Assembly: GCA_051362555.1 (NCBI GenBank)
Contig: CM120640.1
Span: forward strand, 25,468,225 to 25,532,224
DNA from: Lingula anatina
Lineage: Eukaryota > Animalia > Brachiopoda
DNA length: 64,000 nucleotides
Direction of reading: 5' to 3'
The notes beneath the pieces are model-generated. The model did not search any database, was not told the DNA's origin, and worked only from the letters and a program-made list of their open reading frames with translations. Positions 5,716-62,617 of the stretch are shown here, piece after piece (position 1 is the first letter of the stretch; every line of letters starts with the position of its first letter). The position numbers were made by a program, and so were the translations under genes.

Positions 5716-6548
5716 TCACATACAAAGAAATAGAAAAAACATGAACATTTACAAAAATAACTTATCTTAGTTTATATGTACAGATTGGATTCCATAGCGT
5801 ACGGAGATAACGACAGCTTGCCCGCAAGCCTTTTAGTAAACGAATATCAATCTTCGATAAAAGGCCGTCCATGCCCTTGCTTTGATTTTTGCTTTTTTAA
5901 ACATTCTTCGTTCGTGTGAATTCTTCTTTCAGTTCCTTTTTTTTCTGTCAGCAACTACAATTTCATGTCGAACAATATCGCAAAAGACACAAGCTATGTA
6001 ACAGAGACGAAACACCGATGGTTTCAAGAAAATACACAAATACAAATTTAAAAGAGTATTTTGTCATTGAAAAAAGTAAATCACTAAATTGTACTTCATT
6101 ATTAACATTTTAAAGAAATGCGTTTTTCATCTTACAGGCAAGTACACTTGCACAATAACCTATATAAAATTAATTCCCGATTCTTCGACTTATATAAGAT
6201 AGTCCAAAGCATCAACACAAACTGCCGTCATAAAATGGCAAGCGACAAGTGATTGTACATGCCAAGAGAAAAGTGAATAGTCTGGTTTGGATCATAACCG
6301 CTTTTGAACAATCGCACAGTTACGTTCAGTTGCCAGTCTCAGAAATATGTTGTCTCAAACACAGTTAATTGAACAAGGCTTCCGATGAGGGTGAAGATAT
6401 ATATAAACGCCAGGTCTTTTAATGAGTTGCCAATTTCCCCCATTGTTCGGGTAATGAACTGCCAAGAAAACTTCACCATAATGTAATTGTTATTTGATAA
6501 GCCAGATCGTATCGCGTTTTCGGCGTGGCAGGCAAGTTGGTTGACACC

Positions 6549-7301
<753 letters not shown>

Positions 7302-8073
7302 TTAATAAATCGAAAACGAATAAATACAAGTGAAATAATAAACATTAATTAAATACTTATTTTATTTTAGGCCATCAATTTACATGTTATCATGTAAAAT
7401 GTTGTAGGATAGGGAAGATTTGTTCCACCTTAATAATATTTTGCAATATGGCAACTCAGTGTTTTGGTTTGATAAGTTTTCATCAATTAAGTATTCTATA
7501 AAGATGCCAGAAAAATCAGATAATATCAAGATAGATAAGTTGAATGATATTTAAGACGACAATTTTGATGAAACGTTCTTTTGTTTTGATTTTGTATTGA
7601 TTTTGTTTCTTTGAATTGTACCCAACATTTTTTGGGGGTATGATAATTGAAATAATATTTTCAAGCTCACTGTGAACATTTTTATATCAATTTCTATTTT
7701 GTCGAGTGTGGGAACACCCTTAAAAGAAATATTCGTTTACATTTTGGTGTCTGTAGGATATTACGGAAGGGAAAGGTGTTGTCATTTAATTTTCAAATTA
7801 CAATTAAATTAACATAAAATATATTAATACAACAAATTGTTAGTTAAATTTGAACAATGTTTAATTAATTCACTTTACTGACACTAAGACCTGTGGTAAA
7901 GAATGTTTCGTATATTATTTGACATAACCACAATTTTTTAAAATTGCATGTTCAAGATCTCTCAAATAATAATGAAGGTGCAATATATCAAATATTAGAG
8001 AAAATCCTCATACTTAAATAATTAAAAAAAACAAGATAAATATTTTTTTAAAATGTAAAAAGATATAACTTAC

Positions 8074-8353
8074 TTTCCAGCGGGAGATGAAGGAACGGCG
8101 CGTGGTAGGGCCAAGGGTACCAACTCGGGTGTTTGCCGACCAGGCCGCGCTCGAGCAAATGAGAAAACGTGGGATGAAATAACGGAGTTGGATGCACTGG
8201 CTCCGGTTTACTAGGAGAGGAATCGGCAGCGTTGTCGCCCTTCTCCGCCTCTGATGCCCGTGTTTGTTGTCTCTCCTTTTCTCCATCAGGTCTACTGAGG
8301 ATGCTGCTGATAGAGAACGACTTGGCTCCCGCTCCCCTCTCTTGTTCCGTCAT
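8074..8353 (-). CDS. Hmx: Hmx/NK5 homeobox gene, exon 1
   Basis: ATG at 8353; eh1/Groucho motif SFSISSILS; WYPW motif; donor A|GTAAGT at 8073. Joined CDS is 280+728=1008 nt, 335 aa. Confidence 0.9.
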
Positions 8354-8479
8354 GTTGAGTGGTCCAGTAGGTAATGTTTGTAAATTGTTGACTACAAGCC
8401 TTATTAATTTGCCGAGTGCTGCGCAGCGTTCTCACGCAAGTATAGTGTAGGGTCTGGTGTCGGACGTGGGTGCGGCGGT

Positions 8480-8730
8480 GTATTTTAAAACTCAGGTGGC
8501 AGAGACAGCTTAACCGTGATGGCGCCGATCACAGGGAGCGATAATAACTACAAGAGAAAAGAGTAGCAGAGAAGTTAAATGGATGACAAATGGACTGCAT
8601 TCGCGATTGGTCGAGGACAATACATAATAGGATTAGAAGCACACAAGCCAAGGAGCCAGGTCCACCCCGCCAATCACGGACAGAATAGCGAAGAAAGAGC
8701 TGATTGGCGGACGGCACAACGACCAATTAG
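8480..8730 (-). promoter_or_regulatory. Hmx proximal promoter: TATA-like element and CCAAT box cluster
   Basis: TTTAAAATA on the minus strand at about 8481-8489, 130 nt upstream of the ATG. CCAAT/ATTGG at 8606, 8670, 8703 and 8723; GC box CCCCGCC at about 8665. Confidence 0.5.
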
Positions 8731-11700
8731 ATCCACGACTGTTGACATTTTTGTGTCAGCAGCTTGTCAGATTTGTTCGGTGAACAGTAGTAATTGAACA
8801 ATTATTAATCAGCTGTCTTCTCGCTAATGGGTTTGCTTTTCAACTTTTTTAACGGAAAAGATACCCTGAACGCAAAATGACATCTCCTGCCATAAGCTTC
8901 CGGCAAGTTGCATTAATTCACCTTGACTCAGGTGCCACGAAGAACTAAAAACTTGCATCAGCATCGTGACCGTAGACGCTTCCATTAAATGATGGTAAAA
9001 AGAAGACATAAAAAGAGTTCGCGTTGCGTGTGATTGCATTTGAATTGCTCTAAATTTTCTCTTTTCTGTACACGAAACCATCGAACAAGTGAACGAGTCG
9101 TCGGCAATTTGTCAGCTCTTACTAGAACATGTTATTGTTCGGTGGAAAAGTCAGTGATTGCGAAGAGGGATTAAGGACTTTCATGCACAATAGCTTGTCA
9201 ATGGGTGAAACTAGGGGTTCTATCAGAGTTAAATGGTCTTAAAGCAGCAGTCAACTATTCAAGAAGAAAAATCACCGGCAATCCAATCCACACTATTGAA
9301 AAGAAAGAGAGCTGCATGAAAGAACTCTTGCCGTTTAAGTACCCTTTCCCATTTAACGACAATACCTGAACAGAAACATCACCTCCGGACAATCTGCGAC
9401 AAATAGCAAGTAAATGGTGATTAAATGTTCTTTAATACCGCTTGCCATTACAGATGGGTAATTGAGTGAGACAATGGGCGGGTATGGTGATCAGATCAGA
9501 CGGGTTTTGTTGTAATTTTCTTCTTGATTGAATCAGCGATCACTATCGACGCTCTTGTCGTGTCACTTGCAGACCTACTCACTCGGAACCAGTTTTTAGA
9601 AGCAATTAATTAACGGTTCTTCCAAGAGCTCTTTTCTCCATTATCTCCGGAAAATGTTCCTTACCCCTAGGCACGCCATCATTAGATCGCTTTTGTCATT
9701 TTGCTAATGATGTTCCCGTGGGCGCGAAAGCTTGCTCAAACACAGGAGATTGGTTGAAAATTGGAAAGCAAGCTTCTCACAAGTTGCACGGTTGCGCTAA
9801 AGTGGCATCATTAAAAATTGGCGAAATGAAAACGTTGCATGCTGCATACTTTGGGGCACGGCCTGGGGGAAGCCTCAGCCATATGCTCAGAAATAGAAGA
9901 CCTTTCACGACAAAACCTATGAAAAAACGGTCTCATTATTTTCTTCAGTAATGAGGAAAAACAAATCAAGTCAAGTGATCACGCTTTCAACGTTCAATTA
10001 TTTCCTATTGCGCCGTAAAATTGGAAATCTTCAGTTTTCACAGTCAATAGAAATGAAGACAATATGAATGAGGTATAACCTTAATCAGTTCGATAAAATT
10101 GCATTTGAAGGCTGGTGGGCCACAACGGAGCCATTAGGGGAAGAAACCAAGAAACTCTTTATGATTCGTAATTTGCTTGGCACTGGATGAAAATTTGCCA
10201 ATCGAACAAAATTACGCTTAAAATTTTCATTTCACTCACTAAATAGGCCCGCGGAGTTGCGGCTTGATGAAATGCATTCCCTAGTGGGCGGGGCAATACC
10301 AGGCTAGACAACGAAATTTGGAAGGCTGCCCCTCTCTGCTGGATCACTCACGTCCGCGGGGACCATTTCGCAAAAACGTACCGAAAAGAACAAACTAGAA
10401 GCACAATTAGCCTGACTAATTCAGTCAAAATTGGAATGTTGTGTGTTGAACAGATCTTTTATGTAGTCGTTATCAGGTTATAAGTGGTCATTAGTAGGGT
10501 GTCGGTACGGCAGATTATCAGGCCGATCTATCCATCTTCGCGGGCGTGCGGACGACGTGCGGGTCCAAAGGGAGTGCTTCTTAGAAAACCTATTCCAAAA
10601 TAGAGTGTCGTGACAGGGAAATATGTAGGTTTTCTGTCGCCGTTTCGATTTCAGTGCCATTGATTAGAATTATGTTTTAGTTATTTCAATAAAATATAGT
10701 CCCAATAGAAATGATACCTTCATTGTGACTATTAACCGTTTGAAAGTTTTTTGTTTGTTTGTTTGAAAGATTGCAAAATCTGCAAATATCGTTTTTCTAT
10801 TCTTTCAAAAGCCACGAACAGGAAAACGAAGGCCGCTTTTCTCAGACTAATTCGATATATATTCCTAGGACAAACCTGGCATTTGATTCCCCTCAGCTTG
10901 ATGTTACCTTTTTAATTAATTATAAAAAAATAATGTTGATTCTTTTTTGTTTAGTGAGGTACCCCAACAACCCCCAAAGCATTCTTAAAGACTTCAACAT
11001 TTCTCTTTGAGAAGTTAATTAACCGATGTTCTATTCAAAGTAAACAAAACTGCTATCCAGTTGTATTGATAACGATGGAAAAAAATAACACTAAAAGGAT
11101 CATATTGAACAATTTGCTTAAGATCGTTCAAATTGTAGATACTCTTTTCAATAGATTGATAAATCAACAAAATGCGAGTCTATTGTGTTAGATTTTTCAT
11201 GTTTGATGACGTGAGCGATTTATTCTGTTTTAACCATATAAATCTAGAGAGATCAATAGTCATCTTGACATTGTAATACATACTATAACATTTTATTGAA
11301 AGGAGAAATGGCACTAATGGCGCCCTGCGTTTTTCTTTTTCTATCGGGTGAATGGAGAGCATCGCCAAAATGAATAATCACATGTATGTAGCGACAGAAA
11401 AAAGGTTATTCAAAGATAATCATGAAATGATTGCGTGCTAAAAATCATGCTCAGATGTTTTATTTAAGGCATGAATGTAGCTAACATCTTTAAATGACGA
11501 TAAACAAACAAGCGCATAAAATGGTGAAGGAAAACCACCTGTGCAAATTGCCGCTAGACAAAATGTTAAAAGGAAAAGATCAGTAATATCTGCAGATAAA
11601 TATGACTGCAACCTACAAATCTGCAATAATTTGATTACATGGTTGATAACAAAGAAGAAAAAAGAAAGAAAAAAGGAGAAAAGTAATGTCAATCAACATC

Positions 11701-26496: not shown

Positions 26497-27243
<747 letters not shown>

Positions 27244-29552: not shown

Positions 29553-29952
29553 AAGGATAAAAATATAAAAACAAATCTTTAGGCAAGCTGTAAATTTGCA
29601 CTGACTCAGGCACATTATTTCGTCCCAGTAACAAATCAACAAAATACAAAGTAGAAATCTAGGGTCAATTGCATACCAAAGGTCGATGGTAAAACCACTA
29701 TGAATTGGGACTTGCTTAATAGATATTTTCTTTTCCTCAATTTCAGTTTTGATACACTTAAAAAGATCGGCTTAAGGTAAGAAAACACATCGTGTGTATT
29801 ATTATTGTTTTAATCCAACACCTGTTCCGCCATTACCTCTGGAGCAGAAGTAATATTTTCGCACTCCCCGGGGCCGGGGGATCCATTACTACCCCCTAAG
29901 GATTGGTGGAGCGTGAGAAATTGATATGAGAATTTACCATCTACAGTGATCT

Positions 29953-31693
29953 AAATTCTATAAACTAATTAAGTGCATGTATAATAACACCAGACTAGGT
30001 GTATCTATAGGTGAACAGTATACAACCCCATTCAAGTCAAGAATAGGCATCCGGCAAGGGGACAATTTGAGTCCAATACTCTTTAACATATTTATCGATG
30101 ACCTAAAACATGATCTCAGCGAATGCTATAACCCAGGAAATGTTGCTGGACTGAGTCATATCCTCTATGCTGATGATCTTATCCTCCTATCAACATCAAA
30201 AGACGGTCTACAGCACTTGCTGCATAAACTCGAAAGGTACTGCTTAAAATGGAAATTACATGTAAATGAAAACAAATCAAAAGTTGTTGTCTTCAACAAG
30301 TCTGGTAAAGTGGATAAAAATACAAAGTTCTTTATAAATGCCAACCCGATCGAGACTGTGAAAGAATACACTTACCTTGGTATCACCTTTGCTAACACTG
30401 GGTCAATGAAAAAAGCAATAGTAAATCTAAAATTAAAAGCAATGAAAGCAATGTTCTCATTGAAAGGTGCACTTTCGTCACAAAACTTATCCTCACCTCT
30501 CCTATATTTAAAACTGTTTGACAAAGTGGTAAGGCCAATACTCCTCTATGGCTGTGAAGTTTGGGCCCAAGAAATATTCAAAGAAAAGAAGATGACCCTG
30601 AACAAAATTAACCAAATGCCTTTTGAGCAAGCACATTTGAGAATGTGCAAATGGGCACTGGGTTTGAGTAAACACGCCAGCAACAATGCCAGTCGCGCAG
30701 AGCTCGGTCGTTATCCTTTATATTCTAATATTGTTAAACAGGTACAACGATACTGCCAAAGATTTGGAAATCTACCAAATAACAGAATAGTTAAACTCAC
30801 CCATGATGCAGAACTGACAATAGGGGAAAAAGGTTGGCCAGGAGCGATTAATACTATGTTAACGACTTGGAATCTTCACAGTGAAAATGTCCCAGGGGTT
30901 CAGCAAATCCAAACACATTGCAATACTGAGGAAAAAATCAATGCTAAAATTGAAAAAATGTTCTGGGAAGAGTTAACTGATCCTCAAAGCACCAAGTTAA
31001 AAACTTATAGTCTGATAAAAAAGTCCTACAAAATTGAAAAGTACCTGCTAACTAATGCCCCTCAGTCATTAAAAAGGGAAGTGGCTAAAATTAGAGTCAG
31101 TGATCATATTCTGGAAATGGAAAGAGGACGCTACACCAGACCTAAAACACCACGCGAGGAACGATTCTGTCCCCACTGTCCTGCAATCGAGGACGAAGTG
31201 CACTTCCTACTAGAATGTAGACACCATGTAAAAGAGAGGGAGGGCATGTTAAAACAATTCCCTAAATGTGACATGCATCACCTAGCAAGCAGTGACGAGA
31301 AGGTTAAAATCATACTAAGCCCAGAAAATGAGAAAGAATTGTACGCTGTTGGTAAATACATTCAGAGGGCAATTTCCAAAAGAAATGAGCATCTGCCACA
31401 CTGAAGTAGCCTCATCCTGCTATATATTATATGAACCATAAGTATGGCACATTAGATACATATAGCTATAAGCCTATCAAAGAAAATGTGTGTTCCCTCA
31501 GTGTATTGAACTATTTACAATTGTAATAAGTATTTTAAACAACGTATACACTGTAATTAATAATCTTAAACACTGTATTAGTAGTAATCCATAGTGATGT
31601 ATAACTTTTATTTATTTATATATTTGTAGTATAGAGGGCTAACAAATGTAACTGCCACATTTAATGCTCGAATAAATTATTATTATTATTATT
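29953..31693 (+). mobile_element. 5'-truncated non-LTR retrotransposon (RTEX/L2-like LINE), antisense inside the NK1-A intron
   Basis: Uninterrupted frame from about 29953 (KFYKLIKCMY) to 31404. RT motifs GIRQGDNLSPILFNIF, LYADD and YTYLG; also RPILLYGCEVW, RAELGRYPL and a C-terminal CPHC..EDEVHFLLEC zinc finger. The 3' UTR ends in AATAAA (31671) plus a (TTA)n tail. Clade assignment is by motif recall. Confidence 0.92.
29977..31404 (+). CDS. LINE ORF2 fragment: reverse transcriptase C-terminal half plus zinc finger
   Basis: 475-aa ORF with the YADD catalytic motif. It lacks the endonuclease and the N-terminal RT, so it is non-autonomous. Confidence 0.85.
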   Translation: MYNNTRLGVSIGEQYTTPFKSRIGIRQGDNLSPILFNIFIDDLKHDLSECYNPGNVAGLSHILYADDLILLSTSKDGLQHLLHKLERYCLKWKLHVNENKSKVVVFNKSGKVDKNTKFFINANPIETVKEYTYLGITFANTGSMKKAIVNLKLKAMKAMFSLKGALSSQNLSSPLLYLKLFDKVVRPILLYGCEVWAQEIFKEKKMTLNKINQMPFEQAHLRMCKWALGLSKHASNNASRAELGRYPLYSNIVKQVQRYCQRFGNLPNNRIVKLTHDAELTIGEKGWPGAINTMLTTWNLHSENVPGVQQIQTHCNTEEKINAKIEKMFWEELTDPQSTKLKTYSLIKKSYKIEKYLLTNAPQSLKREVAKIRVSDHILEMERGRYTRPKTPREERFCPHCPAIEDEVHFLLECRHHVKEREGMLKQFPKCDMHHLASSDEKVKIILSPENEKELYAVGKYIQRAISKRNEHLPH

Positions 31694-39645: not shown

Positions 39646-40308
<663 letters not shown>

Positions 40309-55176: not shown

Positions 55177-55487
55177 TACCATATAAGTTTAACTTTATAA
55201 TCATAAACTCACTAAGACGTAGTATTTTTACTTGAACCATACGTAGATCGGTCAGTACTGTAATAAGATTTGCCTAGGAAGAATTGATCATTTCATTTTA
55301 CTATGATGCGTTTATGGGTTCTTAACAATGTCAAATATTGGCACAATTCAAAGCAATAAGTGTTATACCTGCATATTAAAAGAGAACTTTTAAAATATAA
55401 TAAACATGTAAATGAGATAAAAAGCACAACTCTGGAGTATAGAATCCATCATACAGTTTGTATACCGTAAGGGTCCAACGATGCCAG

Positions 55488-55565
55488 CCAGTGTTAGACT
55501 CACTTCATCAGCTGTACACCTGGAATTTTAGTGTACAGCATCATTACAGAAATCCCACAGACTGG
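55488..55565 (-). promoter_or_regulatory. Eukaryotic SECIS element (type I-like) in the radical SAM 3' UTR
   Basis: Minus strand reads ccagtctgtgGGATTTctgta-ATGAT-GCTGTACACT-AAAATTCCA-GGTGTACAGC-TGAT-gaagtGAGTCTaacactgg. It has the AUGAN/NGAN core, a perfect 9-bp helix II plus a U-G pair, an apical loop starting AAAA, helix I GGAUUU/GAGUCU and an outer CCAGU/ACUGG pair. Confidence 0.9.
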
Positions 55566-55810
55566 TATCAGAACCTATGTTCTCAGTCTCAAAGGAGAAC
55601 AAAGCCAGCAGCCTAGCATCTGCATTGAATACCTGCAAGTTTCCGCCCATCATGTCCGTGTCCTCTGACAGTGTAATTGCAATGTCATTTCTAATGAATA
55701 TGAGGTTTCCCCCTAGAGCACACATGAGTGCGCTGCAAAATTCTGGAAAATTGTGACTCTTTTGCTTTGCTTGAGCAGAATCGTTGGCTTGCAGTAATCT
55801 GGTGCAGATA

Positions 55811-55962
55811 TTAGACTGTTGTTCCCTGTCAGCTGGACCCCATCCCTGCTGAGCACCCATAACAGTGATTGTCAAACCAGATTCTGGAGCCTTTTAGTTC
55901 ACCGGTGGAATGGATGTCCCACACTGTTAGTGGAGTCGTTTTTCCGACTATTGGTTCTTTTT
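55811..55962 (-). CDS. arsS: Terminal Sec-containing exon of the radical SAM gene (absent from the ORF track)
   Basis: After aaaaCAG the frame reads (E)KEPIVGKTTPLTVWDIHSTGELKGSRIWFDNHCYGCSAGMGSS-TGA(55831-55829)-QGTTV-TAA(55813-55811). Confidence 0.88.
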
Positions 55963-58747
55963 CTGTTTTAAATTTAAAAATAAATTAATCACAGTTATTG
56001 TGCTGTATTGGCACATTTTTCTAAAATTATAATATTTCATACATTCCTAATGTTATAAAATGAAAAAAAAAAGAATGTATATATGTAAAGAAAAAAAATC
56101 TCATTTAATGTCAATTTTGGCAGAACTGACCTTTTGGCACAATTCCTAATTCAAGTTGCTGGTTGAAGTCACAGTCAAACAAATCTCCATTCCACTTGAC
56201 ATTCAGTGTATTTCTACACATTAAGTTGTCTATAGTTGCAATGTTGTAGTTCCTCACCAGCAAATCCATGTACTCTTGAAGCTCATTTCTGAAAAGTGAC
56301 ACTACCATATGACACCTGTGCAATAACAGAAAGATTGGGTTATCCCACACCTTATCATCTACAACAGACATATACATATATTTTAGCATCTTGTCTCTTT
56401 GACTTGAAAAAAAAACTACTCATAGATAATAATGCTTGCATAAAGCTAGAAACTATTTGTTTAACTTTCAAAATATCCATCCAATTAAATTAATGTATTG
56501 TTGGTATTCTTGGACTTAATAAATCTTATCAATTGGATGGGTACTCTATCTATCCTGGACAGTTCACCTTCTGTATAGGAAGTCCACAAATCTCTTGATT
56601 GGCATATTTGTCATTGTAAAGAGACTGGTGAATTCTATACCAAATGTATCCAACAATTCCTCCCTATATTTTTCTTCCAATTCAGACTGCTTTGGTGGAA
56701 GGAAAGCACCTGCACAAAAATAAGCCCTTTTTGTTAAAGGTACATGCGAACCAAGAATCGGTGAAGGATGGATTCCCACTTACACATGCAAACCACTTCT
56801 ACTAGTTTCTTATACGACTAAAATGAATTCGACATGCCAAAAGAAAAACTGAATAGATCACTCGATCAACAATAAAAGAGCTTTAAACTGCTCCTTCCTT
56901 TAAATTTTTGGTTGGAAATTTAACCGTCTTTCGTGACCTACTTTTCTGCCCCATTGACATACAGCATAGAATGCCAGCAGAAAAATCCATTCAAACATCA
57001 TTTTCCGGTAAAATTAAACAATGCCTTTTGGTAATTCCCTTAGTTATACTACTTGAAACTATATGCTGGCATTTGGTTGTTTTTTGTGACAATAATTCAG
57101 TTTAAAACAAAAGGTGCTGTATGTGGCAACAAAATGGTACATTATTCAAAATAAACGTAGCAAAATTACAAGTGAAATAAACTATGATGTCAGTGACAAT
57201 GTATAAGACTAATACAAACATACTATTACCAATACATGCAAAATTACCAATTTGAAAACACCGATTTTAATTTCAGTTTTAAAAACAGAAGTACAATGTT
57301 GTACCAACCTAGAGGATTATACACAAGGTCTAGCTTCAAATTGCTGCCTGGCTTGCCAAACCCCACCTGGTTCAGTGTCAGTAAAGCCTGGATACTTCTG
57401 TCAAACACACCTTTGCCTCTCTGCATGTTCACATTCTTGGCTGAATAACAGGGCAGGGAAGCAATGATGTGGACACCATTCTCTGCAAGAAACTCTGGCA
57501 AATCTTCTTGACCTATAGGAGAGAGATGAAAAAATGATAAAGCTTAGACTGAAAATAATGCTACCATCAATGCTTGTGATATCATAATCTACACTAAAAC
57601 AAACTTAATGCACTATGATCAACAATATTTATTCTCTATTGTCTTGTATGCTATTCACCATCCTAGTGTTATTGGACAGGTGTGATGTTCTACAGGGTGA
57701 CAGGCACCAAGGATAATTTTGATTAATATGAAGTATTTCCTTAATCTAGTTGACATTCCTTCAATGCACCATAATTTTTGAAAAACTGAGTAAAAGATGT
57801 TTGTGCACAAGAATTATCCCCACTGTAGTCAATAAAGAAGAATTATTTAGGAGGAGAGGGGCTGTGGCAATAAAAGGTTTCTCTCTCAGTCCACCAGTTT
57901 CGTGTTTGTTGACAGAAACAGAATATTTGGATCCCCATACAGTTCCCAAGGATGACAATGTGTAAAGTATTGCATGGGAAATGAAAACACAATCACGGTA
58001 CTGCAGTATACCACTGAATTACCTGGTTCCTGGAGGACTGTTAAGTTACACCTGTCAATGATCTCCCTGTCCAGTTTCCTCACACCTTTAACTAAGTGTC
58101 GGAACTCACTACACAACTCTGGTGCACCTCCTAACAGAAAAAAATGTTTAACTGACATGTAGTAATCAAAAACAATCAGGTTTTCTGTTTATGTCTCTGG
58201 AGCACTTCTAATGAAAAAAGAGCTAGATTTCAACACAATGACCTACAGGTAGAAAAAAAATGTAAGAATCTTTAAACTGACTTCCAAGTTAAAAATCTGG
58301 TGAAATTTCTGGTCTTGTGCAAAACATCAACCTTGCCATAAGATATGACCTGTAATTATGGTGTAACCATATTCAGCAACGCTTCTGAATCAGTTATATT
58401 CAACTTCTGATTCTCATACCTGTTATATCCACAGTGGTGACTGATGGGGAATGAGCCATGATATCCAAGCACTTGTCAGCTACTTCTCTGGTCATCATTT
58501 CCTTTCTTTTGGGAGACGATTCTACATGACAGTGGTTGCAGGCTTGGTTACAGTAGATTCCTATGTTCAACTGCATGATCTCTATTTCATCTTTCTTTAA
58601 ATCTCTTTCCACTTCAGTATCTACAAAGAGAATGCACATGTTTGCACATAGGATCATAATTTTAATCTTAAAAGAACAGATGAGATGTAATCATACATGT
58701 ATGTAGCAGTTTTAAGAAAATATTGAAACTGTAGACTGTAAATTTTG

Positions 58748-58789
<42 letters not shown>

Positions 58790-59466
58790 AACCCAGAACT
58801 CCATTACTGAGCTGTTGTTCCTGCCAGTACTCCAAAAAGCCAGGCACACCAAGCTGATCCAAAGCCCTTTGTCGTTTCTTCCTTTCATCCCTTGTCAGCT
58901 TTGCTTGGCCAAATTTCTTTAATTGTTCTGCTGTGATCTGGAACTGCTTGTCCTCCTGCATTTCCTTTAGAGTCTCTGGTATCAGAGAACCCTGGAAAGA
59001 AAAAAAATCACTTAACAAATACTGACAGATCTAAAATAAATGTTGGTCACAGCTTTTATTCCGTCAGATAAACTGGTACACACGCCCCCTCTTGGCATTA
59101 AGTAAAATACAGAAAAGTTGGTGATTATACTAGTACTGGTACGTTGGCAACAAGAAGAAAAAAAATCTGATTGCATTTAGCGAGAGTCCCCAGGGAGTTG
59201 GATCGCTATTTTCATTGGGAATTAACCCTATGACTGTTACTGTTCATTATGCACAGTACCTGCGTTCTTTCCTTCAAGCCTTGTAATCCTGTCCATGACG
59301 GGGGAGGACGATCTGGTCTCTTCAGCTTGTGTTGGTGAATGTTTACGTCAGTATTGTAATCTGGTAATTCTGGGGCCACATATTGCGGTTTGCCAACTTT
59401 ACTTGACAATGTTCTAAACAGGGACGCAGCTGGCATCAAGTGCCTTCGGTCCCTTATCCTGAACAT
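55811..59466 (-). CDS. arsS: ArsS-like radical SAM / Cys-rich (DUF3641-type) selenoprotein, 8 coding exons, about 456 aa, Sec at residue about 451
   Basis: Exons (minus): 59466-59260, 58991-58793, 58620-58420, 58130-58023, 57512-57309, 56709-56568, 56288-56131, 55962-55811. All introns are GT-AG with compatible phases; total 1371 nt. Motifs: QLNIGIYCNQACNHCHVESSP (CxxxCxxC), VDITGGAPEL, IIDRCNLTVL, IASLPCY..NV..QRG.GVF, LVYNPLGAFLPP, TNMPIKRF, LMCRNTL..W.G.LFDCDFNQQL and HCYGCSAGMGSS[TGA]QG. These match the ArsS/rSAM-SeCys family as recalled. The start ATG and the exon-2 donor are the least certain points. Confidence 0.9.
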
Positions 59467-60649: not shown

Positions 60650-61701
60650 TTCAGCTTAAGCGGCTTAGATGTCTGGCACGCCTACTGAAGCTGCTAAACG
60701 ATACCATCTCGTGGACATCGCCCCATTTCATATGTATCCAGAACCTGTCTCAAAAGAACAATTTCTCGGAGCGCAATTCTTGCTATAATTTTGGTAATGT
60801 AAAGTGCCTGAATATGGCAAGCCGACTTGGAACATCTAGATAAGCTAAAAGAGTGTTTTTAAAATTGACATGCTGTTTTAGAACATAATTCTGAGATGTG
60901 TTAGTTAGTCTTGAGTCAAAGTAAACCCAAAGGAGCTTGACCCAAGGTTCTGGTTTTACCAATTTTCCATTGAAAGGTAATTGCTCGTTACTATGGTTGT
61001 CTGCTGTTTTGCCAATAAAAATAGCTTGGAATTATTCAGCTTCGCTTCCATATTAGAGGAGAACCAGTTTATAGCATTTTGTGGATCATATTCAAGTTTT
61101 AAAGGTATCGAAGTCTGGGTGTGCGACACTAAAGGTGTTATCGTCTGCGTACTATTGTAGAGGTTACAATTTTCAATGAGTGCAAGATATCATTTATGCA
61201 TATGTTGAACAGCAGAGGACCAATGATGGGACCTTGGGGAACACCTTTTTGTAAATATTCCCAACAGCTTAGTGTATCGCCGACTTTCACTCGCTGTTTT
61301 CTATTACTCAAGTAGCTATGCATTAGATATAAAGCATTTTTTGCCGAGACCATATGCCTCTAATTTGGCAAGTAGTAAAGTGTGTGGTATACTGTCGAGT
61401 GCCTTCGATAGGTCCATTAGAACAGCGCCAACATACTCGTTTTTGTCTAAACTCTGTTTCCAGTCCTCTACCATCTTTATAAAGAGTGTCTGACAGCTAT
61501 GGCCATGCCTAAGAAAAATGAGCTCAGTTGTTCCACCATAACCTTTTCGTATATATATTTTTGAAAAAACTGGGAGCACATTTACTGGCCTATATTTTTC
61601 CTTATCAAAAGTCTCCTTCTTTTTATGGATGGGTGTAACATCAGCCTTTTTTAAATCAGAAAAGAAACAGTTTTCGGTCGTGCCTCGATTGATACATTTG
61701 G
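60650..61701 (-). mobile_element. Decayed CR1/L2-group LINE reverse transcriptase fragment
   Basis: Frameshifted RT motifs: KKADVTPIHKK, YRPVNVLPVFSKI, AVLMDLSKALDSIPH, SYLSNRKQRVKV, GVPQGPIIGPLLFNI, YADD and VKLLWVYFDSRL. Left boundary approximate. Confidence 0.88.

Positions 61702-61703
<2 letters not shown>

Positions 61704-61746
<43 letters not shown>
61704..61746. repeat. (TAA)n microsatellite abutting the truncated end of the CR1-like LINE
   Basis: Seen directly in the sequence. Confidence 0.95.
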
Positions 61747-62617
61747 TTATTAAGATTGCAACCCAGTGGGTTGAAGTTGTACATAGTGTTAAGAAAATTG
61801 ACCAACAATTGAAGCAGCTGCTATTTTTACAATTTTTGGAGAAATGTTGTCATGTCCTGTGCTTTTCTTTGTATTGATTTTAGTTGTACGTAACATGTAG
61901 CCAGACAGTCGTCCACGCCACTGGTTTATTACTCAACTACAACGCTTTTCATACCCGTCTTACATATATGAAACATTTACATATTAAAAAGCTCTTATGT
62001 CGCTTTAAAATATCTACTTGGCCATTTTAATGAGGGCAAAATCTCCGCAGTGTCTCGCCTGGAGTTTTTCTCAACTTAGCAACCGTATCTTACGAGACAC
62101 CAGTTCTGTGACACAGCATTACGCTTTTACATATTTTTTTATGAGACAAGTTAGTAGTTAAAGAAAATTATCCGATGAAGCCTGATAAAAACAGCAAATA
62201 TTGTTTTCAAAACAATTTTATCATAAGTGTTGCTTACTGTGATAGTATGACGTGATTTGAAAAAAAAATCTGCGACAAAAATGTTTTCTTATATTGTGAT
62301 TTTTTTCGAGTTAGTTTTTCTTAGGCCCTCTACTTCAGCTTTCATTAATATATATAACTTCATTTCCAATTTTAGTGTTGCGGCTGAATTAAATCACAAT
62401 ACAATTTACATGATTTAAAGGAAGCAAAAGGAAACTACGTAAATCACTATTTATGACTTTAGATAACTATAACAGGGCAAAGCTAAAATAACAGAATTTG
62501 AAAGTAAAATGAAATATTGGATGTAAATAGATTTCAGGTTGTTGAATTTGTGGAGCAATGTAGATAATCATTTAAAAAAGATTCCAATGAACCTTAGGAC
62601 CAGTCCAGCTTCCGTAA

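What the first reader, a model, noticed from the sequence alone, without database searches (positions are those of the whole stretch)
55811..58620. Possible endogenous arsenosugar pathway in an animal (ArsS homologue linking Se and As chemistry)
Established: cyanobacterial ArsS, working with the methyltransferase ArsM, transfers the 5'-deoxyadenosyl radical to dimethylarsenite, the committed step towards arsenosugars. Arsenosugars and arsenolipids in marine animals are usually attributed to diet. Seen: all recognisable ArsS blocks are intact here, in a gene with 7 spliceosomal introns flanked by animal homeobox genes, so it is not bacterial contamination. Inference: the animal may make adenosyl-arsenic compounds itself, using AS3MT as the ArsM equivalent. 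The C-terminal C-x2-C-x7-U cluster, with Cys in LMCR and DCDFNQ, could bind As(III) or an auxiliary Fe-S cluster.
Basis: partly seen in the sequence, partly recalled or inferred. Interest (0 to 1): 0.8.

Follow-up and report, generated by a model that had tools for sequence, protein, structure and literature searches.

The report
Arsenosugar-forming selenoenzyme in marine invertebrates
A brachiopod has a spliced, expressed gene of the family whose cyanobacterial member starts arsenic-sugar synthesis, shared with many marine invertebrates and algae and predicted to carry selenocysteine and work in mitochondria, so these animals likely make some of the organoarsenic usually blamed on their diet.

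Summary
The matching Lingula anatina record (446/450 identical) scores 410 bits on the ArsS equivalog TIGR04167 (cut-off 300). It is not a brachiopod oddity. Relatives occur in a sponge, priapulid, annelid, nemertean, molluscs, copepods, echinoderms, hemichordates, amphioxus, choanoflagellates and algae. Best reading (0.55): a mitochondrial Sec enzyme that adenosylates dimethylarsenite. Four invariant Cys fit a Twitch auxiliary cluster, leaving Sec451 for arsenic. Supporting: ArsS-ArsM fusions in 5 of 20 long homologues; AS3MT reported in Lingula. Against: only 45% identity to a cyanobacterial arsM-arsS enzyme, many arsS bacteria lack a detectable arsM, no animal assay. The scan noted bacterial and algal ArsS before on other DNA, but no animal copy. 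Ten paper searches found no account of animal ArsS.

The parts
59260..59466 (-). Exon 1 (ATG at 59466; residues 1-69): basic, acid-poor leader, then the start of the eukaryote-only extension
   Evidence: (joint of intron 1)
59374..59466 (-). Predicted mitochondrial presequence (about residues 1-31), with an R-x-L-S cleavage-like motif (motif recalled)
   Evidence: first 20 residues net +4, one acidic; 29 of 30 animal homologues net +2 or more against 27% of control segments; no targeting predictor was run
58793..58991 (-). Exon 2 (residues 70-135): helical eukaryote-only extension
58420..58620 (-). Exon 3 (residues 136-202)
58529..58552 (-). Radical-SAM C-x3-C-x2-C motif (C159, C163, C166)
   Evidence: invariant in 112 of 112 aligned homologues
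58023..58130 (-). Exon 4
57309..57512 (-). Exon 5
56568..56709 (-). Exon 6 (start of DUF3641)
56131..56288 (-). Exon 7
56171..56218 (-). C378-x9-G-x4-C393: first half of the SPASM/Twitch auxiliary-cluster motif
   Evidence: C378 in 112 of 112, C393 in 111 of 112; motif CX9-15GX4C in PMC6231123
55811..55962 (-). Exon 8, coding part, ending in TAA at 55813-55811
55829..55864 (-). C440-x2-C443-x7-U451 tail; TGA read as selenocysteine (inferred) at 55831-55829
   Evidence: Cys at this place in 8 of 31 named animal records, the other 23 end right before it; no change listed here in RNA reads, 4 rows not shown
55502..55553 (-). SECIS-like element in the 3' UTR (AUGA, 9-bp stem, AAA loop, UGA)
   Evidence: Rfam SECIS_1 24.3 bits, below the gathering score of 35, E 0.012 on 301 bases; fold z -3.35; only hit of a SECIS pattern in the 64-kb window, 1 of 2000 shuffles; covered by RNA reads
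55200..55810 (-). 3' UTR, read depth ends at about 55.2 kb

Best explanation
This spliced, expressed nuclear gene encodes an ArsS-family radical-SAM protein that likely carries selenocysteine, is predicted to be imported into mitochondria, and likely joins the 5'-deoxyadenosyl group of SAM to dimethylarsenite, which would give the animal its own first step towards arsenosugars. Steps: (1) shown: splicing, expression, in-frame UGA, SECIS-like hairpin, family membership; (2) inferred: Sec insertion at codon 451; (3) predicted: mitochondrial import and removal of the leader; (4) inferred from the family: a [4Fe-4S] cluster on C159/C163/C166 cleaves SAM, and C378/C393/C440/C443 hold a Twitch-type auxiliary cluster; (5) inferred by analogy with the Cys tail of ArsL: the free C-terminal Sec451 captures As(III) and presents dimethylarsenite; (6) inferred: radical addition at arsenic gives 5'-deoxy-5'-dimethylarsinoyladenosine (DDMAA) in a redox-neutral cycle, as for cyanobacterial ArsS; (7) inferred, untested: the animal's AS3MT supplies dimethylarsenite and unknown enzymes turn DDMAA into arsenosugars or arsenolipids. 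The gene was inherited within animals from an early eukaryotic lineage shared with algae.
For: TIGR04167 equivalog 409.8 bits against cut-off 300; 11 of 11 proteins tested pass. ArsS makes DDMAA from DMA(III) without NADH (PMC13598754 passages). ArsM-type methyltransferase domains are fused to ArsS in 5 of 20 long homologues, in both orders, at 5 separate places on the tree. A cyanobacterial arsM-arsS locus enzyme is 45% identical over 309 columns with all seven motif Cys aligned. In 201 proteobacterial genomes an ArsM-like gene was found in 26 of 91 with arsS and 11 of 110 without (genomes not independent). AS3MT is listed for Lingula, Branchiostoma floridae, Saccoglossus, Crassostrea gigas and Ectocarpus (PMC5398495 section 11), all of which have this gene. 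Algae that make arsenosugars carry the same eukaryotic branch. The ArsL Cys tail binds arsenite and not an Fe-S cluster (bioRxiv 2024.02.01.577332 passages). Best fold matches include Twitch and SPASM radical-SAM enzymes. Leader statistics. Sec evidence.
Against: No animal or algal member has been assayed in anything I could read. The cyanobacterial enzyme lies far from the eukaryotic branch. Many arsS bacteria have no detectable arsM: 65 of 91 at E 1e-40 with one query; 23 of 50 at E 1e-15; 0 of 5 over the PRK11873 cut-off, including two complete chromosomes; ArsM-like within 4 kb in only 11 of 80 loci. The fused methyltransferase domains score under NCBIfam's ArsM cut-offs. PMC5398495 found no AS3MT in crustaceans, yet two copepods have this gene. 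AS3MT is cytosolic (recalled), so the substrate would have to cross into mitochondria. I could not test whether animals have the partner glycosyltransferases TIGR04282/TIGR04283, which sit beside 45 and 52 of 80 bacterial arsS genes. The SECIS scores below Rfam's gathering threshold, and one stem pair is broken in the more diverged RNA samples.
Confidence: 0.55

Rival explanations
1. The family's main job is not arsenic. In eukaryotes the enzyme adenosylates or modifies some other small mitochondrial substrate (for example a sulfur, selenium or phosphorus species), and the 'arsenosugar' name is carried over from one distant cyanobacterial member.
For: Most arsS bacteria sampled lack a detectable arsM. 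45% identity to the cyanobacterial enzyme. Strong conservation across phyla (58-67% between Lingula and other animals), a freshwater mussel copy, and a eukaryote-only extension could fit a housekeeping role.
Against: Repeated ArsS-ArsM fusions; enrichment of arsM with arsS; presence in arsenosugar-making algae; no vertebrate, insect, nematode or fungal name among the listed hits (top lists only, so not proof of absence). I recall that ArsS homologues of several bacterial phyla were active on DMA(III) in Cheng et al. 2021, which I could not read.
Confidence: 0.25
2. The enzyme does adenosylate dimethylarsenite, but as a stand-alone sink for DMA from seawater, food or microbes that protects mitochondria. 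It is not coupled to AS3MT and no arsenosugar pathway follows.
For: arsM-less arsS bacteria; copepods with the gene while crustaceans were reported without AS3MT; no downstream enzyme identified in animals; no ArsM fusion among eukaryote-type proteins of 789 aa or more (2 hits; weak test).
Against: AS3MT is present in Lingula and in three other animals with the gene; algal sister enzymes sit in organisms that finish the pathway.
Confidence: 0.17
3. The gene is contamination, a recent transfer from a bacterium or alga, or a dead copy with a premature TGA.
For: The family is mostly bacterial; TGA lies 6 codons before the stop; two choanoflagellate copies group with algae.
Against: Seven GT-AG introns, stranded RNA reads and joints; animals form one branch from sponge to amphioxus (86/88); Cys or a truncation at the same place across phyla; SECIS-like hairpin.
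Confidence: 0.03

Closest known systems
ArsS, arsenosugar biosynthesis radical SAM (seleno)protein (NCBIfam TIGR04167; Pfam PF04055 + PF12345 DUF3641); prototype from cyanobacteria (Cheng et al. 2021, seen only as cited in PMC12159101 and PMC13598754)
   Same: Passes the equivalog cut-off; same domain order; all seven motif Cys and the C-terminal Cys/Sec position; 45% identity to an arsM-arsS locus enzyme of Pseudanabaena.
   Different: Intron-containing nuclear gene with a eukaryotic SECIS; about 135 extra N-terminal residues (leader plus an extension found in 24 of 25 algal and choanoflagellate proteins and in none of 24 short or fused homologues or 1764 bacterial ORFs); no operon with arsM or the TIGR04282/TIGR04283 transferases; activity untested.
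Algal 'FeS oxidoreductase' selenoprotein family (FeSoxR in PMC7539508)
   Same: Probably this family: UniRef names several algal and animal members 'Fe-S oxidoreductase' and an Aureococcus member is in the set. The identity is inferred; the paper's supplement could not be read.
   Different: That paper gives no arsenic link and does not name it among the 19 families also reported in animals (passages).
ArsL (arsinothricin radical SAM enzyme)
   Same: Radical C-As bond formation; Cys-rich C-terminal tail that binds As(III).
   Different: Transfers the aminocarboxypropyl group, not adenosyl; different family and tail motif.
Twitch/SPASM radical-SAM enzymes (BtrN, SkfB, BlsE, EpeE, MoaA)
   Same: CX9-15GX4C followed by distal Cys; Foldseek best matches E 1e-9 to 1e-8.
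   Different: 12-17% identity, TM-scores about 0.4; other substrates; no solved ArsS-family structure was found.

Membership tests
ArsS (TIGR04167) | Score above the curated equivalog cut-off | tested here: met
   409.8 bits against 300, profile positions 2-298 of 303
ArsS (TIGR04167) | Radical_SAM core with C-x3-C-x2-C followed by DUF3641 | tested here: met
ArsS (TIGR04167) | C-terminal C-x2-C-x7-C/U tail | tested here: met
ArsS (TIGR04167) | Branches inside the ArsS family | tested here: met
   the eukaryotic branch lies among bacterial members when rooted on a cyanobacterial and a Bacteroidota member; no non-ArsS outgroup was used
ArsS (TIGR04167) | Makes DDMAA from SAM and DMA(III) | not testable with these tools
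   needs an assay
Arsenosugar pathway (ArsM + ArsS + transferases) | An arsenite methyltransferase in the same genome | tested here: inconclusive
   no genome is held for the window; AS3MT of Lingula anatina is listed in PMC5398495; not searched by me
Arsenosugar pathway (ArsM + ArsS + transferases) | TIGR04282/TIGR04283-type transferases or other downstream enzymes in the animal | not tested
   none in the window's scanned ORFs; no genome to search
Eukaryotic selenoprotein | In-frame UGA aligned with Cys in homologues | tested here: met
Eukaryotic selenoprotein | SECIS in the transcribed 3' UTR | tested here: met
   pattern, fold and RNA coverage; Rfam score under the gathering threshold
Eukaryotic selenoprotein | Sec found in the protein | not testable with these tools
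   needs 75Se labelling, ribosome profiling or mass spectrometry
Twitch-domain radical SAM enzymes | CX9-15GX4C plus distal Cys binding one auxiliary cluster | tested here: inconclusive
Mitochondrial matrix proteins | Cleavable basic presequence and import | tested here: inconclusive
   composition test only; no predictor or localisation data

The most novel reading that the evidence does not exclude
Most marine invertebrate phyla, from sponges to amphioxus and including farmed mussels, oysters, clams and scallops, run their own arsenoriboside synthesis through a mitochondrial selenium-dependent ArsS inherited from early eukaryotes and lost in vertebrates, so part of the arsenosugar, arsenolipid and possibly arsenobetaine load of shellfish is made by the animal and depends on its selenium supply.
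Probability: 0.4. Interest if true: 0.87.

Novelty: new variant of a known kind. Interest (0 to 1): 0.68.

Why it matters
Arsenosugars and arsenolipids in invertebrates are described as passed on from algae through the food chain (PMC10456119 passage). A conserved, expressed ArsS in bivalves, echinoderms, worms and amphioxus makes animal synthesis directly testable with one enzyme assay and one labelling experiment. It bears on where seafood organoarsenic comes from and on the marine arsenic cycle. It would also add a radical-SAM selenoenzyme to animal biochemistry and tie selenium status to arsenic handling in a single protein. The family label itself is not new: automatic UniRef names already call two bivalve copies 'Arsenosugar biosynthesis radical...'.

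Tried and rejected
Contamination, recent transfer and pseudogene: rejected. Plastid or cyanobacterial origin of the eukaryotic branch: not favoured by the trees but not rejected (AU p 0.08). Animals plus choanoflagellates as one clade: not in the best tree, not rejected (AU p 0.20), so inheritance from the last eukaryotic ancestor and old eukaryote-to-eukaryote transfer cannot be told apart. Rfam on 2.5 kb gave only chance hits; the SECIS appeared only on a 301-base stretch. I looked for compensatory changes in the SECIS among RNA samples: none; the two diverged samples show four changes (one G-U wobble, one broken pair, one loop base, one in helix I) and an unchanged core. Search for eukaryotic ArsS-AS3MT fusions of 789 aa or more: 2 hits, neither with a methyltransferase. 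No solved ArsS-family structure. The N-terminal extension has no named look-alike. No indexed RNA holder was listed; same-label raw-read runs were laid instead. The second structural look with VIA-align did not run. No whole genome is held, so AS3MT, the Sec machinery and downstream transferases could not be searched in this animal. Literature: ten searches listed no paper on ArsS or a radical-SAM selenoprotein in animals. PMC3473315 has no passage on it. Baclaocos et al. 2019, which I recall listing a radical-SAM selenoprotein in the Pacific oyster, and Cheng et al. 2021 are not held, and the supplement of PMC7539508 could not be read; these may bear on novelty. No complex prediction was run.

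Full report
Gene structure. The finding lies on the minus strand. Splice-site inspection gives eight coding exons: 59466-59260, 58991-58793, 58620-58420, 58130-58023, 57512-57309, 56709-56568, 56288-56131 and 55962-55811. They are separated by seven GT-AG introns of 168-599 nt, and the frame is open for 456 codons apart from one TGA at codon 451. Raw RNA reads from four same-label runs (three studies) cover the exons. The two stranded libraries put the RNA on the minus strand. Six of seven joints are listed at the predicted places; intron 2 is not listed and lies at a poly-A repeat that the tool skipped. The closest named protein is Lingula anatina LOC106169016 (P0001), which equals my model at 446 of 450 residues and stops just before the TGA. 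No whole genome is held for the window.

Surroundings. Three homeodomain ORFs lie at 6552-7301, 26500-27243 and 39649-40308, all on one side and at least 15 kb away; the other side shows only reverse-transcriptase fragments up to the window end (172 of 189 ORFs scanned). By their homeodomains they look like one Hmx and two NK1 genes (names recalled). GC content is even across the gene.

Family. Exons 3-8 match TIGR04167 in order. P0001 scores 409.8 bits against a cut-off of 300, and 11 of 11 proteins tested pass. It is 45% identical over 309 columns to the arsS product of a cyanobacterial arsM-arsS locus (Pseudanabaena plasmid). I used that as a stand-in because the assayed prototype could not be fetched. 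In 112 aligned homologues C159, C163, C166, C378, C440 and C443 are invariant and C393 is kept in 111.

Selenocysteine. Of 31 named animal records, 23 end exactly before the TGA position and 8 (seven echinoderms, one priapulid) have Cys there; of 21 algal and choanoflagellate records 4 end there and 17 have Cys. I did not check the codon behind those truncations. A hairpin 284 nt after the TGA has the SECIS core. It is the only hit of my pattern on either strand of the 64-kb window, and 1 of 2000 shuffled UTRs gave a hit. It folds at z -3.35 and matches Rfam SECIS_1 at 24.3 bits, under the gathering score of 35; a scan of 2.5 kb missed it. Reads cover it. No change is listed at the TGA or in the SECIS core (40 rows shown, 4 not), while two diverged samples carry four changes in the element, one of which breaks a stem pair.

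Distribution and origin. Named relatives come from a calcareous sponge, a priapulid, an annelid, a nemertean, many bivalves (oysters, mussels, clams, scallops, a freshwater mussel), two copepods, echinoderms, hemichordates and amphioxus, at about 57-67% identity. Others come from two choanoflagellates and from brown algae, cryptophytes, chlorarachniophytes, pelagophytes and a haptophyte; Atlas clusters add green algae. No vertebrate, insect, nematode, cnidarian or fungal name appears in the listed hits, but only top lists were seen. In the careful tree (46 rows picked from the 82, near-duplicates, one long-branched fused protein and most bacterial rows left out) eukaryotes form one branch at 100/98 and animals one branch at 86/88 with the sponge first; the choanoflagellates group with chlorarachniophytes. 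The quick trees agree. AU tests reject neither animals plus choanoflagellates (p 0.20) nor eukaryotes plus the cyanobacterial enzyme (p 0.08). So the gene is old in animals; its deeper route is open.

A profile of residues 33-128 built from 22 animals finds 24 of 25 algal and choanoflagellate proteins, none of 24 short or fused homologues and none of 1764 ORFs from 80 bacterial loci. In front of this extension sits a variable leader. In 29 of 30 animals the first 20 residues have net charge +2 or more, and in 30 of 30 at most one acidic residue, against 27% and 22% of control segments; an R-x-[FYL]-[SAT] motif (recalled as a processing site) occurs in 10 of 30 against 9%. The model of the Priapulus homologue (pLDDT 88, pTM 0.89) has a disordered leader, a folded helical extension and a disordered last eight residues. 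This points to mitochondrial import, where Fe-S assembly and several other eukaryotic radical-SAM enzymes are (own knowledge). No predictor was run.

Cysteine roles. C378-x9-G-x4-C393 fits the CX9-15GX4C motif of SPASM/Twitch domains, and BtrN binds one auxiliary cluster with four Cys (PMC6231123, passages). Foldseek's best matches are SPASM and Twitch enzymes at E 1e-9 to 1e-8 and TM about 0.4. I infer that C378, C393, C440 and C443 hold that cluster. The flexible Sec451 is then free to capture As(III), as the Cys tail of ArsL does (bioRxiv 2024.02.01.577332, passages).

Is it arsenic? For: ArsS converts DMA(III) to DDMAA without NADH (PMC13598754, passages). Five of 20 long homologues are ArsS fused to an ArsM-type methyltransferase, four C-terminal and one N-terminal, at five places on the tree; their methyltransferase scores are under the NCBIfam cut-offs. 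In 201 proteobacterial genomes an ArsM-like gene was found in 26 of 91 with arsS and 11 of 110 without (odds ratio 3.6; related genomes, one query each, handles assumed to be the same in both calls). AS3MT is listed for Lingula, amphioxus, Saccoglossus, Pacific oyster and Ectocarpus (PMC5398495, first part of section 11). Against: the same numbers show most arsS genomes without a detected arsM. Among the first 50 of 79 arsS loci, 23 genomes had no match at E 1e-15, and five of them, two complete, had nothing over the PRK11873 cut-off. Within 4 kb of 80 arsS genes the common neighbours are TVP38/reductase (58), TIGR04283 (52) and TIGR04282 (45), and ArsM-like only 11. PMC5398495 found no AS3MT in crustaceans, while two copepods have ArsS. 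Downstream enzymes in animals were not tested.

Literature. Ten full-text searches listed no paper on animal ArsS. PMC10456119 (passages) says arsenosugars and arsenolipids pass through the food chain into invertebrates; PMC7177459 (passages) treats synthesis as microbial. PMC9312934 (passage) lists TIGR04167 as a predicted prokaryotic selenoprotein. PMC7539508 (passages) lists an algal FeS oxidoreductase selenoprotein, probably this family, without arsenic and not among the families it names for animals; its supplement could not be read. PMC3473315 (passages) does not mention it. PMC5552862 and PMC12159101 were seen as passages. I recall that Baclaocos et al. 2019 listed a radical-SAM selenoprotein in oyster; I saw nothing of it, nor of Cheng et al. 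2021 beyond citations. UniRef already auto-names two bivalve copies as arsenosugar enzymes. Earlier notes of this scan cover bacterial and Ostreococcus ArsS, none an animal.

Verdict. The gene is a real member of the ArsS family and most likely a selenoprotein. It is a eukaryotic variant with a predicted mitochondrial leader, kept across most marine invertebrate phyla sampled. That it makes DDMAA in the animal as the start of an arsenosugar route is likely (0.55) but rests on homology. A non-arsenic role (0.25) and a stand-alone DMA sink (0.17) remain open. Novelty: new variant of a known kind. Interest 0.68.

Noticed in passing
window 6552-7301, 26500-27243, 39649-40308 (all minus strand): Three homeodomain ORFs in tandem orientation; by their homeodomains one Hmx/NK5-like and two near-identical NK1-like genes (names recalled), i.e. 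part of an NK homeobox cluster with a duplicated NK1.
   Followed up: partly
window 29950-31401 (+) and 61141-61849 (-): Reverse-transcriptase (RVT_1) ORF and fragments, probably non-LTR retroelement remains; one lies between the two NK1-like genes.
   Followed up: no
window 56770-57092 and 59164-59205: Transcribed repeats inside introns 5 and 1: many reads on both strands with loose ends, probably short interspersed elements.
   Followed up: no
window 55958-55962 / 56130: In the two more diverged RNA samples the exon 7-8 joint carries three extra bases, i.e. a one-codon length difference in the variable loop before the C-terminal tail.
   Followed up: no
P0049, P0095, P0135, P0139, P0140, P0141, P0143, P0124: All seven echinoderm records and Priapulus have Cys where other animals appear to have Sec: at least two Sec-Cys switches, and natural Cys versions that are easier to express.
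   Followed up: partly
P0273, P0330: ArsS fused to a flavin-reductase-like domain (P0273) or to a carboxymuconolactone decarboxylase/AhpD-like domain (P0330), hinting at a dedicated reduction step.
   Followed up: no
L087 (NC_012718.1) 5974-11287: arsS on a widespread Burkholderia glumae plasmid sits with a second radical SAM gene, a YiiX/YebB hydrolase and DUF547, with no arsM in the 13 kb shown.
   Followed up: no
P0120, P0187: The two choanoflagellate copies (Savillea, Diaphanoeca) group with chlorarachniophyte algae rather than animals (99/91), a possible alga-derived transfer; monophyly with animals is not rejected.
   Followed up: partly
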